Shown here in pieces: positions 15,611-22,414 of a DNA stretch of 64,000 bases. A program made the translations under genes and the position numbers. The notes under the pieces were generated by a model. The model saw only the letters and a list, made by a program, of their open reading frames with translations. It was not told where the DNA came from and made no database searches. Position 1 is the first letter of the stretch. Each line of letters begins with the position of its first letter. The stretch is from Akkermansiaceae bacterium (GTDB taxonomy: Bacteria; Verrucomicrobiota; Verrucomicrobiia; Verrucomicrobiales; Akkermansiaceae): assembly GCA_043716765.1 (NCBI GenBank), contig JAYSYA010000274.1, forward strand, positions 3,082 to 67,081. The letters run 5' to 3'.

Positions 15611-15730
15611 TCAATCCAAGAACTTCCCGGGATTCAAGATGCCGTTCGGATCGAACGCGTTCCTGAGCGCGCGGTGGGAAGGAGTCATCGCCGAGCGCAT
15701 GGCGGATCCAGGGCTTTTTGGCGAGGCCCA
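15611..15730 (-). pseudogene. 3' fragment of an FAD-linked oxidase (GlcD/FAD-oxidase_C type), frameshifted
   Basis: [18 protein letters not shown], then in another frame [21 protein letters not shown]. DPxGILNPGK is the family's hallmark C-terminus. Confidence 0.75.
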
Positions 15731-15732
15731 CC

Positions 15733-16117
15733 CTATCAGGTGGCTAAGCCCGGCGCATCAAGCTCGTCTCCGAACTCACTCAAGGCCGCGCTCATCCAGC
15801 CCAATTTCTATCTGATCGAAGAAGCCACCGTCGGCCTCCACCTCGAAGACGTCCAGCGCCTCATCGACGTCCTCCACCACCTCGTCGATGAGGGCCACAC
15901 CGTGGTCGTCATCGAGCACCACATGGCCGTCGCCGCCGAAGCTGACTGGATCCTCGACCTCGGCCCCTAAGCCGGCGACGGCGGCGGCCAGATCATCGCC
16001 CAAGGCCCGCCTGAAAAAATTGTGAAGTCCAAGACCTCCCGCACCGCGCCGTTTCTCAGGAAATCCTTAGGGAATTGGAGTTTCCCGCGATTTCCCAGCT
16101 TCAGCACGCTGAAATAA
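15733..16117 (+). pseudogene. uvrA: 3' fragment of a UvrA-type ABC ATPase with two nonsense codons and a frameshift
   Basis: [15 protein letters not shown] (TAA 15745), frame change, then [38 protein letters not shown]...[33 protein letters not shown] (TAA 15968). Confidence 0.85.
15985..16058 (+). repeat. uvrA 3'-end direct repeat, copy 1
   Basis: 74 bp, 65/74 identical to 17329-17402 by manual alignment. Confidence 0.9.
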
Positions 16118-17317: not shown

Positions 17318-17328
17318 CCCGAAGACTA

Positions 17329-17402
17329 CGGCCAAATCATCGCCCAAGGCCCACCAGAGAAAATCGCCAGGTCCAAAACCTCCCGCACCGCGCCGTTTCT
17401 CA
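17329..17402 (+). repeat. uvrA 3'-end direct repeat, copy 2
   Basis: Encodes GQIIAQGPPEKIARSKTSRTAPFL, starts 11 nt after the fic stop, and reads on to TGA at 17420-17422. Confidence 0.9.
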
Positions 17403-17583
17403 AGATTGCTTTACGGCTTTGAAAAATGGACCGCGAGATTCTTCTCGCCCGAGGCCAACTGGAAGCGCGAAATTCATTCCGCGCGGAATTCTACGCATGC
17501 CTTTTCCCTCGCCATTCCCAGCCGGCGTTCACAACCTCCCGCAGCCTCCGGATCACCTGAGCCTCGCTAAAGCTTTCCCTGAA

Positions 17584-18731: not shown

Positions 18732-18906
18732 TCAGGCGACGGCTCGCTTGGGGAGCAACTTGAACAAATCTTCAAAGCGATCCAGCGTGAACGGCGTGCG
18801 CTTACCGACTTTCAGATCAGTCGCACGCGGCATAGACCTTCGAATCCAGCGAGGTCGCGGTGACGGTCTTTTTCGGGGCGGTTTTCTTGGCGCGTCTGGC
18901 GGGCAT
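18732..18906 (-). pseudogene. hsdM: Second HsdM deletion scar (N-terminus joined to near C-terminus)
   Basis: MPARRAKKTAPKKTVTATSLDSKVYAACD*, then in a shifted frame from about 18820, TDLKVGKRTPFTLDRFEDLFKLLPKRAVA*. Both resemble ends of EcoAI/EcoEI-like HsdM from memory. Confidence 0.6.
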
Positions 18907-18912
18907 GATGAA

Positions 18913-20364
18913 TCAGGAGGAAAGCCAGTAACAGGCGAGCGGAGCGGGGATGGCGAGGATCTTCGCGTTCAGCAACTCGCGTTCGCGGCCTTGCTTGGCC
19001 GAAGGAACATCGAACAGGCCGAAGTCCTCCCAACGCCGGGAAATGATGTAGCCGTGCTCGACCTTTTGGTTTTCGAGAAACAAGCGCAGGCCTTTGAACT
19101 TCCCGAGATCGAGCGGGCTATCCTGGTATTTTACCTCGAAAGGTACCAGGCGGTCGCCGATTTCAGCGATCAAATCCACTTCCAAATCCTTGTTAGCCTT
19201 GTCCCGCCAATAGGTGAAAACCGGTTGGTCCTCGTAGTAGCGGGTGAAGACGTGTTTGAAAAAAGCCGTCTCCACCGCGGCTCCCAGCCGGTCGGGCCGC
19301 TCCAACAGTTTCCGGCCGAGCAACAGCACCGACCCGGGCAGCGCGGCGTCCGCCAGATAGATTTTAGGCTTTCCGCGCAGGATCTCCTTGCCATAGCCGT
19401 GCGGGCGGAGCCGATAGATCAGGTGGGTGGACTCGAATAGATCGAGGAAGTTGTTCACCGAGTTCCGGTTCACGCCGTCCAGCTCGCGGGAAAGCGCGGC
19501 AACGTCGAGGATGCCGCCATCGTGGTAGCACAAATAGAGGAAAATCTTCTCCACCTCCAGCACCCGGCGCACGCCGTAGAGCGCGGTCATGTCGCGCTTC
19601 AACACCTTGTCCACGATGTCCTCGCGCAGCAGCCGCTGGCAGCGCGTTAGATCAGAAACGCTGGCCGGTTCCGGGAATCCGCCGCGCAGGAGGTAGTCAT
19701 GGAAATGCGGAGTCAGCGACTTCGCCTGGGCTGCCGTGCGGGCGAAGTCGCCGGGGCTCCAGTCGAAACACTGTTTCAGTGACTTCACCATCGGCACCGG
19801 GCCGGGATCGATCCCGCGCAGTTTGAGAAACTCCCCGAAGGAAAGCGTAGCCAGCGGCAATGTCTGCCAACGTCCGACCCCGGATTCCGCCTGCGCGGCA
19901 TGAAGCGGGCTGGCCGAGCCCGTCACCACGATCCGCCGCCCGCGCTTGAAATCGACCTGGTGCTTCAGCCACGTCTGCCACTCCGAGACATACTGGATTT
20001 CATCGAGAAACAGCCATTGCGGCTGCCCTGCGGTGGGCGGGAAAAGCTCTTCCCATGCCGCCAAGGTGCGCTCCAGCCCGGCGAGCTTTAGAATGGGATG
20101 GTCGAAAGTGGCGTAGAGGATGTTTCCGGTGGGCGGGCCATTTCCCACCAGATTGCGGATCGCTTGGCGCAGCAAGGTGGTTTTCCCGGTCTGCCGCGCT
20201 CCGCTCAGAACGAGCGCCCGGCGCGATTCCGTGTCGTTGATCCACGCCCGGATCGGCACGCTCGCCGATCGTTCCCAATCCGGCAGGTCGGATACGGGCA
20301 GCCCGGTCCACCAAGGATTGAACTCCTGGAGGACGGCGAAAAGTTCGGCTTTGGGCAGTTCCAT
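18913..20364 (-). CDS. AAA_14 ATPase with DUF4143 / PD-(D/E)XK-like C-terminus
   Basis: GARQTGKTT, LFLDEIQY, VTGSAS, RGGFPE, PKIYLADAAL, GAAVETAFF, EVDL...FEVKY. Confidence 0.9.
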   Translation of the reverse strand: MELPKAELFAVLQEFNPWWTGLPVSDLPDWERSASVPIRAWINDTESRRALVLSGARQTGKTTLLRQAIRNLVGNGPPTGNILYATFDHPILKLAGLERTLAAWEELFPPTAGQPQWLFLDEIQYVSEWQTWLKHQVDFKRGRRIVVTGSASPLHAAQAESGVGRWQTLPLATLSFGEFLKLRGIDPGPVPMVKSLKQCFDWSPGDFARTAAQAKSLTPHFHDYLLRGGFPEPASVSDLTRCQRLLREDIVDKVLKRDMTALYGVRRVLEVEKIFLYLCYHDGGILDVAALSRELDGVNRNSVNNFLDLFESTHLIYRLRPHGYGKEILRGKPKIYLADAALPGSVLLLGRKLLERPDRLGAAVETAFFKHVFTRYYEDQPVFTYWRDKANKDLEVDLIAEIGDRLVPFEVKYQDSPLDLGKFKGLRLFLENQKVEHGYIISRRWEDFGLFDVPSAKQGRERELLNAKILAIPAPLACYWLSS

Positions 20365-20422
20365 GCTTAATTCGCCTGTTTATGCTCTCTATAAAGAGCT
20401 TAATCCAGCCGATTATGCTTTT

Positions 20423-21042
20423 TTACGAAAAAACCCGTCTCAACGCGGCGGCCGGGAGGGACTTGATGGCTTTCAACTCGGCGCGCGCCGCGGTGAGGAT
20501 TTCCGTGGCGGCGGTGAGGCGGGCGTCGAGTTGCATAGTGAGATTGTCCTGCTGCTTGCGGCTCGGAAGGCAGACGTGAAACTCCCGTGCAGCGGGCATG
20601 TAAATGGTTTGATGGATCGCGCCGGACGACTTGGTTTCCATGTAGGCCTTCGATGCGCGCAGGGCCTGCATGAGGAAACGAGGTGCCAGATCGCTGCCGC
20701 AGATCCAGTTGAAGAAATGCTGACGGTGGCCATCGGTCGGCCTGCCCATGATTGTTGTGAAGCCGACTTGAACATCACGGCCGAAGACGACGGTGTCTTT
20801 GGGGAGAATGCGGGCGGACGAATTCTTAATTCCCAGAGGATTGGTGTAGCCTTTGGTCTCCATCGCCACCTTTGCCGTCGATGGCGCGGATGTCGGGGAA
20901 GGAAACCCAGGGAATTTCGCCGCCCCAACCCGGTTGGCGGCGGCTGGGGGTGTGACCGGATTTGAGACCGGCCTGGGTGGCAAGCCGCTGCCACGACCCA
21001 CCCGCCGAGCCGCAATCAATCCATCGTGTTTTTCCCGCTCAT
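20423..21042 (-). pseudogene. hsdS: Type I R-M specificity subunit remnant (single TRD, frameshift near 20870)
   Basis: KSGHTPSRRQPGWGGEIPWVSFPDIRAIDGK, +1 frameshift, then VAMETKGYTNPLGIKNSSARILPKDTV...LPSRKQQ...KSLPAAALRRVFS*. ATG 21042 overlaps the TGA of the duplicated hsdR end; most of the first TRD is missing. Confidence 0.78.
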
Positions 21043-21048
21043 GCGGCT

Positions 21049-21077
21049 AACAACCTCCGTTTGGTTTCCATGACGAG
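21049..21077 (-). repeat. hsdR 3'-end direct repeat, copy A
   Basis: AACAACCTCCGTTTGGTTTCCATGACGAG (29 bp) is identical to 21947-21975; weaker similarity extends about 25 bp further. The minus strand reads LVMETKRRL. Confidence 0.92.
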
Positions 21078-21116
21078 CCAGGCGGGATTGGCGGAGGCTT
21101 TGGCCGGATGGTTTTC

Positions 21117-21551
21117 TCATACCGCTTTAAGGAGTTGGAGGTCGGGGAGTGAATAGGATTTGAAGCCTGCATCGAAGGTAACGAAGGCAAGGTCCGCGGT
21201 TTTCGCCCAAGCGGCGAGATAGGCGTCCATCCAAAGCTTGGGCGAGGCCGTGCGCCCGGCGATGTGTTGCCGCCATGCCCCGTCGAGCCCGGCGGGTTCC
21301 ATGGGCAGGTAGGCGGTGCGGATGTCACCGACGAGTTTTTCCCAAACGTGCCAGGCATCGTCGGGGGTGTGTGTGTCGTCCCCCATGACGCTGCGGTTGA
21401 TGAGCAGGCGGAGGACGGTTTGCTGGAGCGGCCGGCACCAGCAGCAGGTTGCGGCAGGGCGCTCGCTCCACCAGTCAATGGCTGCGGCGTGATGTTGGTG
21501 GCTCTCGACGAGGATGGGCAGCCAGACGTTGGCGTCAACGAGGGCGGGCAT
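21117..21551 (-). CDS. vapC: VapC-type PIN domain toxin (TIGR00028-like)
   Basis: MPALVDANVWL, SHQHHAAA..WW, LWMDAYLAA, FVTFDAGF acidic PIN residues. Confidence 0.88.
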   Translation of the reverse strand: MPALVDANVWLPILVESHQHHAAAIDWWSERPAATCCWCRPLQQTVLRLLINRSVMGDDTHTPDDAWHVWEKLVGDIRTAYLPMEPAGLDGAWRQHIAGRTASPKLWMDAYLAAWAKTADLAFVTFDAGFKSYSLPDLQLLKAV

Positions 21552-21882
21552 GGGCGGCGAGTTCTTCTTGATCCATTTCCTCAAGCGCTTGCTCGACGGC
21601 TGCGGCGGGGATTTGCGGTGCTCCTTTTCTGGCTGGGATCAGCGGACCGCTGAGGCGGTAGCCCTGTGGGTAAGCCATACGCAGGCTCTCGGCGTCCCGA
21701 TGGCGGCTCAGTTGGGCCGGGGTAACGACCGGGATTTCGGCAGTGGTCCGCGAGCTACCACCCTCATCAAGCCATTTCTGAAAAAGATCCGCAGCCACCT
21801 CGCGGATGCGCCGCCCTTCTTCGGCCGTGCGGGCCTTGACCCGCCGGTAAAGGTCGTCCGGAATGTCGATGGTTGCCTTCAT
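21535..21882 (-). CDS. Ribbon-helix-helix antitoxin (VapB-like)
   Basis: MKATIDIPDDLYRRVKARTAEEG RHH start. Lies immediately upstream of the PIN gene and overlaps it. Confidence 0.82.
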   Translation of the reverse strand: MKATIDIPDDLYRRVKARTAEEGRRIREVAADLFQKWLDEGGSSRTTAEIPVVTPAQLSRHRDAESLRMAYPQGYRLSGPLIPARKGAPQIPAAAVEQALEEMDQEELAAHARPR

Positions 21883-21936
21883 GGATGGCAAGTTAGCTGG
21901 TTTCCTGTATCGCGTCAAGGTAGGCGGTGGGTGTCA

Positions 21937-22368
21937 TCAGGCGACGAACAACCTCCGTTTGGTTTCCATGACGAGTTGGGCGGGATGGCCGTGAGCCTGG
22001 AGGGCGGCGAGGCCGCCGGCGCGTTTGACGGCGGGGACGTCGAAGAGATCGGGGAATTCCAGGCCCGACGAGGGCGAGCAGCACGCCTTCGGTGGTGTTT
22101 CCGAAACCGGCGAGCCAGGCGGCATTAGCGGCGGCGAAGGCTTCCACGCGGTGGAGGCGGGCGCGGCGAGCTTTACCTTGTAGTCGGCCACTGAGACGGG
22201 CATCGCCTTGCCATCGACCTCGGCGACGAACGAGATGCCGCCATCGAGGATTTCCACGGTGACGCCACGGGCCTCGACTTTGATCGGGACGGGATTTCCA
22301 CCGCCTTCTTCCTCACTATCAGACGCGGGCGTTTTTCTCCGGGTGGCCATCCTTGACCGCGGCGGCAT
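21937..22368 (-). pseudogene. hsdR: Type I R-M restriction subunit C-terminal remnant with internal deletions and frameshifts
   Basis: IKVEARGV...VDGKAMPVSVADYKVKLAA / RVEAFAAANAAWLAGF / GLEFPDLFDVPAVKRAGGLAALQAHGHPAQLVMETKRRLFVA*, spread over two frames. Matches recalled EcoEI-type HsdR C-termini. Confidence 0.65.
21947..21975 (-). repeat. hsdR 3'-end direct repeat, copy B
   Basis: Exact 29-bp match to 21049-21077. Confidence 0.92.
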
Positions 22369-22414
22369 TCGAGCCGAAGACGGTTACACTGTCGTCGCCG
22401 GCGCGCGGCTTTTT

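What the first reader, a model, noticed from the sequence alone, without database searches (positions are those of the whole stretch)
21039..21975. vapBC module inserted with duplication of the hsdR 3' end
Seen: an exact 29-bp direct repeat (with diverged extension, HPAQLVMETKRRLFVA* vs NPAWLVMETKRRLLAA*) flanking the RHH antitoxin and PIN toxin. The downstream copy's TGA overlaps the ATG of the hsdS remnant, so it preserves the original hsdR-hsdS coupling. Inference: the TA pair entered the R-M operon at the hsdR end and may have stabilised the locus after the R-M died.
Basis: partly seen in the sequence, partly recalled or inferred. Interest (0 to 1): 0.62.

Follow-up and report, generated by a model that had tools for sequence, protein, structure and literature searches.

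The report
Toxin-antitoxin pair lodged in dead restriction operon
A small toxin-antitoxin gene pair sits between two copies of the last ~19 codons of a restriction-enzyme gene. This is an old arrangement that let the pair enter the operon without breaking it, and here the pair has outlived the operon, which has since decayed around it.

Summary
A 55-nt direct repeat (47/55 identical, 29-nt exact core, 898 nt apart, unique in the genome) brackets an intact vapB/vapC pair on the minus strand.

The repeat is the 3' end of a type I hsdR gene. The downstream copy ends in ATGA, the start of a half-deleted hsdS.

All seven related operons found in the same order have hsdR-TGA overlapping hsdS-ATG with no insert. 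That is the empty site.

A metagenome contig (L107) holds the occupied state with an intact 791-aa hsdR and an hsdS open to the contig end. The order is hsdR, vapBC, a 44-nt second tail (95% identical), hsdS.

The same two junctions occur around vapBC copies only 73-94% identical. Tail scraps also travel with the pair into places with no recognisable R-M gene (L098, L095, L104); in L100 a scrap of hsdS comes too.

In this window the R-M is wrecked: hsdR is four scraps, hsdS half is gone, and hsdM is 27 codons. vapBC stays under purifying selection (dN/dS 0.07-0.29). The "TA stabilised the locus" idea is therefore not supported.

The closest known process is "insertion with long target duplication". 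This is a moderately interesting new variant of a known kind.

The parts
21937..22384 (-). hsdR remnant. Four scraps of a ~790-aa type I restriction subunit, matching residues 241-259, 591-644, 708-740 and 746-791 of the L107 HsdR. They are joined by internal deletions and frameshifts. The 143-aa ORF 21937-22368 is the last piece.
21937..21991 (-). Upstream copy of the hsdR tail (HGHPAQLVMETKRRLFVA*). The exact 29-nt core is 21947-21975 and the stop codon is 21937-21939.
21883..21936 (-). Spacer plus a conserved upstream element of vapB: TTGACG, 17 nt, TAACTT, then 7 nt to the ATG. The 25-nt element CGATACAGGAAACCAGCTAACTTGC is conserved in every related cassette examined. It is a probable promoter/operator with no Shine-Dalgarno, so the mRNA may be leaderless.
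   Evidence: The sigma-70 consensus scan did not call it, so its function is inferred from conservation only.
21535..21882 (-). vapB, a 115-aa antitoxin with an RHH-like N-terminus (MKATIDIPDDLYRRVKARTAEEGRRIREV).
   Evidence: RHH_10 E=0.012; MazE6 E=0.8, weak. Relatives are called as 113-116 aa, with one 83-aa exception. dN/dS is 0.07-0.17.
21117..21551 (-). vapC, a 144-aa PIN-domain toxin. Its start overlaps the vapB end by 17 nt.
   Evidence: TIGR00028 E=3.1e-23, above cut-off; PIN; D6, D109, D127 invariant; M. tuberculosis VapC43, 7vwo, E=1.3e-5; dN/dS 0.12-0.29.
21039..21116 (-). Downstream copy of the hsdR tail. It begins right after the vapC stop (ENHPAKASANPAWLVMETKRRLLAA*). The repeat proper is 21039-21093 and the exact core is 21049-21077. 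It contains GGAGG 11 nt before the hsdS ATG, and its TGA overlaps that ATG.
20423..21042 (-). hsdS remnant. The original start codon (21040-21042) is followed by a frameshift and a deletion of the first ~205 residues. TRD2 and the C-terminal conserved region are kept (20429-20993).
   Evidence: Methylase_S only E=0.22; 57-66% identity to G193 HsdS residues 206-393, E=2e-58.
20380..20407 (-). 28-nt motif GGATTAAGCTCTTTATAGAGAGCATAAAC between the hsdS remnant and the ATPase gene. The same motif lies just after vapC in a relative (L092) that has lost the tail and hsdS.
18913..20364 (-). Intact 483-aa AAA_14/DUF4143 ATPase, a passenger gene of the operon. It is 70.6% identical to the gene at the same place in the G193 operon.
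18741..18821 (-). hsdM remnant. Only 27 codons are left, matching residues 441-467 of G193 HsdM.

Best explanation
This is a decayed descendant of an old, non-disruptive insertion of a type II vapBC toxin-antitoxin cassette. The cassette is about 0.84 kb: an upstream element, a 115-aa RHH antitoxin and a 144-aa PIN RNase toxin.

It entered at the overlapping hsdR-stop/hsdS-start junction (GCATGA) of a type I R-M operon. The operon order is hsdR-hsdS-passenger-hsdM, and the HsdR has an EcoEI_R_C tail.

The insertion came with a duplication of the last ~19 codons of hsdR. The upstream copy keeps the HsdR C-terminus and stop. The downstream copy keeps the GGAGG and ATGA that hsdS needs for translation. 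The operon could therefore stay functional, as the intact hsdR and open hsdS start of locus L107 suggest.

Later, in this Akkermansiaceae lineage, deletions removed most of hsdR, the first half of hsdS and nearly all of hsdM. vapBC and the DUF4143 ATPase stayed intact.

Shown: the repeat, the identities of all parts, the empty and occupied states in other genomes, the shared junctions, the decay, and purifying selection on vapBC.

Inferred:
- vapBC is an active addiction module, so deletions that reach into it are counter-selected. That would explain why scraps of hsdR tail survive right beside it.
- The duplication arose either by single-crossover (Campbell-type) entry of a small circle carrying its own hsdR tail, or by insertion at widely staggered breaks.
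For: Repeat and anatomy.

hsdR identity of the repeated piece.

hsdS, hsdM and ATPase identities and the extent of the deletions.

Empty site: 7 of 7 same-subfamily operons among 401 genomes of the order have hsdR ...RLFAA/IFVA + TGA overlapping the ATG of a Pfam-confirmed hsdS, with no vapBC. One of them (G193) is syntenic, down to the DUF4143 ATPase.

Occupied state with intact hsdR: L107 has a 791-aa HsdR with all domains, then vapB, vapC, a 44-nt second tail (42/44 identical) and ATGA-hsdS.

Shared junctions:
- vapC-stop|tail in the window, L100, L095, L098 and L107.
- tail-stop|vapB upstream element in the window, L098, L104 and L107.

Tail-bearing cassettes fall on both sides of the main split of the VapC tree.

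vapBC is functional-looking and under selection.

Mismatches between the two copies cluster at both ends. P=0.011 for a 29-nt clean run among 8 random mismatches in 55 positions.
Against:
- VapB's RHH assignment is weak (E=0.012; E=0.8).
- The L107 contig ends inside hsdS, so a complete working R-M with the insert is not shown.
- Orthologous and paralogous tail copies are about equally similar across genomes (my count). A single ancient duplication therefore cannot be separated from repeated re-integration or gene conversion.
- The VapC tree is poorly resolved: 12 of 18 inner branches are open.
- The empty-site operons are from other genera, not from the same species.
Confidence: 0.75

Rival explanations
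1. Homology-guided hopping cassette. The hsdR tail is a working part of the mobile unit. Recombination between the two tails releases a ~0.9-kb circle (vapBC plus one tail). The circle re-enters any operon of this hsdR subfamily by a RecA crossover in the conserved tail. That would regenerate tail-vapBC-tail each time and leave hybrid copies.
For: - The 29-nt identical core is about the minimal length for efficient homologous recombination (established knowledge). It is flanked on both sides by diverged sequence, as hybrid attL/attR-like copies would be.
- Tail pieces accompany vapBC in contexts with no recognisable R-M gene (L098, L095, L104); in L100 the tail comes with an hsdS scrap.
- Within-genome copies are as similar as between-genome copies.
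- In L100 the whole block lies between two copies of a glcD-like 3' end. These differ by 18 synonymous against 5 non-synonymous codon changes, so two alleles were brought together, as a Campbell entry of foreign DNA predicts.
Against: - The non-R-M contexts are equally well explained by R-M decay in place. L098 keeps a DLFD...ETKRRLFVA hsdR scrap, L100 keeps an hsdS scrap, and L092 keeps the hsdS-ATPase intergenic motif.
- The clean core coincides with the part of the tail under double constraint, the HsdR C-terminus plus the hsdS ribosome-binding site.
- None of 7 naive operons in the order carries the cassette.
- No circle or empty-site reads could be sought.
Confidence: 0.15
2. Recent local event. 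The TA entered this genome's own hsdR end, and the two copies have drifted apart since.
For: The structure in the window alone fits it. Differences between the two copies are mostly non-synonymous: 6 against 1 in 19 codons, as expected for drift in dead sequence.
Against: - Identical junction positions occur in L107 and L098, whose vapBC differs from this one by dS 0.6-1.3.
- The same positions occur in L100 at 92.5% identity but in another genomic place.
- Mismatches are not randomly spread (P=0.011).
Confidence: 0.05
3. Integrase-less remnant of a site-specific integrative element (a CIME-like unit) whose att site is the hsdR 3' end.
For: Direct repeats that include a gene's 3' end and a short identical core are typical of elements that integrate into gene ends (established knowledge). 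Breakpoints of the scraps in L095 and L098 fall within GGAAACCAAACGGAGG.
Against: - There is no recombinase gene in or beside the unit here, or in L107, L100 or L098.
- Related cassettes are bracketed by duplications of other genes and of very different lengths: glcD 209 nt, icd ~140 nt. That does not fit one att site.
Confidence: 0.05

Closest known systems
Insertion with long target duplication (Nobusato et al. 2000, Gene 259:99; Furuta et al. 2010, PMC2853133)
   Same: - A small selfish gene unit with no transposase or integrase.
- It is flanked by direct repeats longer than 30 bp that are single-copy at the empty site of related genomes.
- The repeat often covers the 3' end of a neighbouring gene (here).
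   Different: - The cargo is a toxin-antitoxin pair, not an R-M system. Their operational definition requires R and M genes in the insert.
- The target lies inside an R-M operon, at an overlapping stop/start.
- The empty sites seen here are in other genera, not in the same species.
- The copies are diverged (85%), whereas most published cases are near-identical.
VapBC type II toxin-antitoxin systems (e.g. M. tuberculosis VapBC43, PDB 7vwo)
   Same: - A PIN-domain toxin with conserved acidic residues.
- A small upstream antitoxin gene that overlaps the toxin start.
- TIGR00028 membership above the curated cut-off.
   Different: Sequence identity to any solved VapC is low. The antitoxin's RHH fold is only weakly detected. 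The RNA target is unknown.
Toxin-antitoxin homologues embedded in type I R-M loci (pneumococcal tvr locus with phd-doc-like tvrAT, Kwun et al. 2018, PMC6265443)
   Same: A TA-like pair sits between hsd genes of a type I system. Direct repeats and circular intermediates occur at that locus.
   Different: The tvr locus has its own tyrosine recombinase, and its repeats shuffle hsdS halves. TvrAT acted as a regulator, not a demonstrable addiction module. Here there is no recombinase and the repeats are hsdR ends.
Passenger genes in type I R-M operons of the same subfamily
   Same: Relatives of this operon carry passengers between hsdS and hsdM: a DUF4143 ATPase, a STAND-like ATPase, DUF1828, and a ParE/Unstab_antitox TA pair.
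   Different: Those passengers lie at the hsdS-hsdM gap and show no duplication of the neighbouring gene end. Only the vapBC at the overlapping hsdR/hsdS junction has one.

Membership tests
VapBC type II toxin-antitoxin | Toxin with a PIN domain and its conserved acidic residues | tested here: met
   TIGR00028 E=3.1e-23 (82.6 bits against a cut-off of 73.6). Pfam PIN E=1.9e-9. D6, D109 and D127 are invariant in 11 relatives. A profile hit to VapC43 gives E=1.3e-5.
VapBC type II toxin-antitoxin | Small antitoxin gene immediately upstream, co-oriented and overlapping the toxin gene | tested here: met
   vapB 21535-21882 overlaps vapC 21117-21551 by 17 nt. The same two-gene layout occurs in every related locus.
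VapBC type II toxin-antitoxin | Antitoxin with a DNA-binding fold (RHH, AbrB or similar) | tested here: inconclusive
   RHH_10 E=0.012, below the gathering score. MazE6 E=0.8. No NCBIfam hit.
VapBC type II toxin-antitoxin | Toxin arrests growth and the antitoxin neutralises it | not testable with these tools
   This needs expression in a laboratory strain. The only indirect support is dN/dS of 0.07-0.29.
Type I R-M operon (HsdR with EcoEI_R_C tail) | hsdR, hsdS and hsdM all present and intact | tested here: not met
   In the window hsdR is four scraps, hsdS lacks residues 1-205 and hsdM is 27 codons. The locus is a remnant, not a working system.
Type I R-M operon (HsdR with EcoEI_R_C tail) | The repeated segment is homologous to the HsdR C-terminus | tested here: met
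   phmmer hits end in ...ETK(R/E)R(L/M)FAA and carry EcoEI_R_C, ResIII and Helicase_C. There is 72% identity to residues 746-791 of the L107 HsdR. The Pfam model itself does not reach the remnant.
Insertion with long target duplication | Direct repeat longer than 30 bp flanking the insert, with no mobility gene inside | tested here: met
   55 nt here and 44 nt in L107. The 898-bp unit holds only vapB and vapC.
Insertion with long target duplication | The repeat aligns to a single copy at an empty site in a related genome | tested here: met
   7 of 7 related operons have one tail and no insert. They belong to other genera, so this is not the intraspecific comparison used in the papers.
Insertion with long target duplication | The insert contains R and M genes (operational criterion of Furuta et al. 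2010) | tested here: not met
   The cargo is a TA pair. It therefore works like that class but is not a member by their definition.
Site-specific integrative element or CIME | attL/attR made by a dedicated recombinase, either present or demonstrably acting in trans | tested here: not met
   No recombinase is present in the unit or its neighbours in the window, L107, L100 or L098. Related cassettes are flanked by duplications of other genes and other lengths.

The most novel reading that the evidence does not exclude
The tail-flanked vapBC is a recombinase-free, homology-guided mobile cassette. Its two hsdR tails let it loop out as a ~0.9-kb circle. It could then re-enter any type I operon of this subfamily by a host RecA crossover in the highly conserved tail, the hsdS ribosome-binding region. 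Each entry would preserve both flanking genes.

More broadly, small selfish modules in these Verrucomicrobia (vapBC at glcD and icd ends, fic at uvrA ends) may spread by Campbell-type entry of circles that carry a copy of a host gene's 3' end.
Probability: 0.2. Interest if true: 0.7.

Novelty: new variant of a known kind. Interest (0 to 1): 0.45.

Why it matters
It gives a clear natural series for one selfish gene pair:
- an empty site (seven operons);
- an occupied site with hsdR still intact (L107);
- an occupied site in a wrecked operon (this window);
- bare TA pairs still carrying scraps of hsdR tail in unrelated places.

This shows three things. First, it shows how a gene pair can be slotted between two translationally coupled, overlapping genes without harming either, by duplicating the shared end. 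Second, it extends "insertion with long target duplication", described for R-M systems, to a toxin-antitoxin cargo that parasitises an R-M operon. Third, it shows that the TA outlives its host operon. The scraps can therefore serve as tracers of where a TA pair used to live. It does not reveal a new kind of system.

Tried and rejected
- Pfam and NCBIfam on the 143-aa "hsdR" ORF and on the hsdS remnant gave nothing usable. Whole-genome scans with EcoEI_R_C and Methylase_S also missed the locus. Identity had to come from phmmer against representatives and tblastn with relatives' proteins.
- A DNA search of 40 relatives found no orthologous locus.
- The sigma-70 scan found no promoter. The vapB upstream element is therefore called from conservation only.
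- I checked whether VapC relatives in the order are generally flanked by long repeats. Only 3 of 29 were: one a tandem vapBC duplication, one a REP-like hairpin, and one an icd 3' end.
- I checked whether passengers at the hsdS-hsdM gap also carry duplications. None did.
- I considered that the third CATGGAAACCAA in the hsdS remnant is meaningful. One extra match against 0.29 expected is not significant.
- I considered assembly artefact. I rejected it because the repeat core is only 29 nt and independent assemblies share the junctions.
- The VapC tree could not order the events because it was too short and poorly resolved.
Full report
**1. The observation**

All genes of the locus lie on the minus strand. 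One search reports a direct repeat at 21039-21093 and 21937-21991: 55 nt, 47/55 identical, 898 nt apart. One search gives the exact 29-nt core, which I place at 21049-21077 and 21947-21975. The repeat has no third copy in the 3.4-Mb assembly.

Similarity ends exactly at the stop codon in both copies.

Between the copies are two genes:
- a 115-aa gene with an RHH-like N-terminus (21535-21882);
- a 144-aa PIN gene (21117-21551; TIGR00028 E=3.1e-23), which overlaps the first by 17 nt.

The downstream TGA overlaps an ATG whose frame dies after 8 codons.

**2. What the flanks are**

The upstream 143-aa ORF has no Pfam or NCBIfam hit. The EcoEI_R_C model finds nothing in the whole genome.

A HMMER search of 1.8 billion representatives found 32 relatives. 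The informative ones are HsdR C-termini with ResIII, Helicase_C and EcoEI_R_C. All end in ...ETK(R/E)R(L/M)FAA.

Against an intact 791-aa HsdR (L107), the window keeps only residues 241-259, 591-644, 708-740 and 746-791.

Using the proteins of a syntenic operon (G193, locus L055), one search shows:
- The downstream ORF is HsdS residues 206-393 (E=2e-58). The first TRD is deleted.
- The 483-aa AAA_14/DUF4143 gene is full-length at 70.6% identity.
- hsdM is reduced to 27 codons at 18741-18821.

So the R-M is dead, and lpdA abuts the hsdR scrap.

**3. Empty and occupied sites elsewhere**

An HMM of the tails searched against 401 genomes of the order gave seven full-length same-subfamily hits. The organism is an Akkermansiaceae MAG, judging from the titles of related records.

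In all seven, hsdR ends ...FAA or ...FVA, and its TGA overlaps the ATG of a Pfam-confirmed hsdS. The operon order is hsdR-hsdS-(0 to 3 passengers)-hsdM. No vapBC lies at the junction.

Close VapC relatives were then traced to their contigs. L107 (VapC 74% identical) carries, in order:
- an intact hsdR;
- TGA, then within 8 nt the vapB upstream element;
- vapB and vapC;
- 15 nt, then a 44-nt second tail (42/44 identical);
- ATGA and a genuine HsdS N-terminus.

That is the occupied state with hsdR intact. The contig ends inside hsdS.

**4. The arrangement is old and travels**

The junction vapC-stop|tail is shared by the window, L100 (92.5% nucleotide identity), L095, L098 and L107. The junction tail-stop|vapB upstream element is shared by the window, L098, L104 and L107.

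Yet L098, L095 and L104 have no recognisable R-M gene nearby, and L100 keeps only an hsdS scrap:
- L098 lies between a PQQ propeller gene and RNase PH.
- L104 lies after a glutamate dehydrogenase gene.
- L100 lies after a glcD-like gene.
- L092 lies after an ABC ATPase gene. It has lost both tails but keeps, right after vapC, the 28-nt motif that in the window lies between hsdS and the ATPase gene.

Other relatives have no scraps at all (L093, L096, L101-103, L108-113).

Tail-bearing cassettes sit on both sides of the main split of a poorly resolved VapC tree. Synonymous divergence between the window and L107 or L098 is 0.6-1.3. dN/dS stays at 0.07-0.29 for both genes.

The simplest reading has three steps. 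There was one old insertion into an R-M operon. The operon then spread. It later decayed independently in several lineages, and the TA survived with whatever scraps lay next to it.

**5. How it most likely works**

VapC is a PIN RNase with invariant D6, D109 and D127, related to M. tuberculosis VapC43. VapB is the cognate antitoxin and probable autorepressor.

A 25-nt element (CGATACAGGAAACCAGCTAACTTGC) between a TTGAC and the ATG is conserved in all cassettes. It leaves only 7 nt before the start, so the mRNA may be leaderless. This is inferred; the consensus scan did not call a promoter.

The duplication solves a specific problem. hsdR and hsdS overlap (ATGA), and the GGAGG for hsdS lies inside the last hsdR codons. 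Any plain insertion there would either truncate HsdR or strip hsdS of its initiation region. With the tail duplicated, both are kept. This step is inferred from anatomy and from L107.

**6. How the duplication arose**

This is not settled. The mismatches between the window's copies cluster at both ends (P=0.011 for the 29-nt clean run). Hybrid copies left by a crossover in the core would look like this. So would stronger constraint on the core.

In L100 the whole block (vapBC, tail, hsdS scrap) lies between two 209-nt copies of a glcD-like 3' end. They differ by 18 synonymous and 5 non-synonymous codon changes. G000 has a single copy of this 3' end attached to its own glcD-like gene on another contig. 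The two L100 copies are therefore alleles brought together, which favours Campbell-type entry of foreign DNA carrying its own copy of the target end, at least for that event.

A VapBC of the same family elsewhere in the order lies between copies of an icd 3' end. The window also has fic between two uvrA ends. Passengers at the hsdS-hsdM gap show no duplication.

**7. Comparison with what is known**

The closest described process is "insertion with long target duplication" of R-M units. Here the cargo is a TA and the target is an R-M operon, so it works like that class but fails its R+M criterion.

TA homologues inside a type I locus are known from the pneumococcal tvr locus, which has its own recombinase. 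No recombinase is present here.

The claim that the TA stabilised the locus is not supported, because the R-M genes were deleted up to the TA's edges.

**8. Verdict**

The insertion-with-duplication reading is supported and now backed by empty and occupied sites. The event is old rather than local. The stabilisation idea is rejected.

This is a new variant of a known kind, of moderate interest.

Noticed in passing
window 15611-15731 (minus strand): An orphan, frameshifted copy of the 3' end of a glcD-like FAD oxidase gene (...[13 protein letters not shown]...[13 protein letters not shown]). It lies about 40 nt upstream of the start of the 2044-aa helicase-nuclease ORF. It is 78% identical to the genome's own glcD end on another contig (C246) and 84% identical to the copies that bracket vapBC in L100. 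The glcD end therefore looks like a recurrent landing site whose scraps move with cargo genes.
   Followed up: partly
window 15976-16077 and 17320-17421 (plus strand): A 102-nt direct repeat (79% identical, 1344 nt apart). This is the same architecture as the vapBC case. No intact uvrA lies upstream.
   Followed up: partly
L100 3998-4205 and 5482-5690 (JANOZJ010000307.1, oriented with vapBC on +): A block of vapBC plus hsdR tail plus hsdS scrap is bracketed by a 209-nt duplication of a glcD-like 3' end (88% identical). There are 18 synonymous against 5 non-synonymous codon differences, so the two copies are alleles, not a drifted duplicate.
   Followed up: yes
L085 (G126:C34), about 965-1118 and 1986-2130 in vapC-plus orientation: A 36-37% identical VapBC of the same family sits between two copies of the 3' end of a monomeric isocitrate dehydrogenase gene (...GKPVDIGGYYQPDP...). 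The downstream copy is decayed.
   Followed up: partly
window 20380-20407; L092 4797-4824: A 28-nt motif with a short palindrome (GGATTAAGCTCTTTATAGAGAGCATAAAC) lies in front of the DUF4143 ATPase gene. It reappears immediately after vapC in a same-genus relative that lacks the tail and hsdS. It may be an operator of the ATPase gene that survived a deletion.
   Followed up: no
window 18913-20364 (minus strand): An intact AAA_14/DUF4143 ATPase is conserved at the same position (between hsdS and hsdM) in the G193 operon. Like vapBC, it has outlived the R-M genes.
   Followed up: partly
L059 4515-5074 and the same place in L060: A different TA pair (Unstab_antitox antitoxin plus ParE toxin) lies between hsdS and hsdM in two operons of the same R-M subfamily. 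There is no flanking duplication.
   Followed up: yes
window 20631-20642, 21061-21072, 21959-21970; also 21899-21905: CATGGAAACCAA occurs three times in the 64-kb window, all within this locus (0.29 expected). Two are the repeat copies and the third is inside the hsdS remnant. The vapB upstream element also contains GGAAACC. Whether VapB recognises this motif is unknown.
   Followed up: partly
L055-L061 (seven related operons): This HsdR subfamily has the gene order hsdR-hsdS-(passengers)-hsdM, with hsdR and hsdS translationally coupled by GCATGA. From my own recall rather than a check made here, described type I operons usually place hsdM directly before hsdS, so this order would be unusual.
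   Followed up: partly
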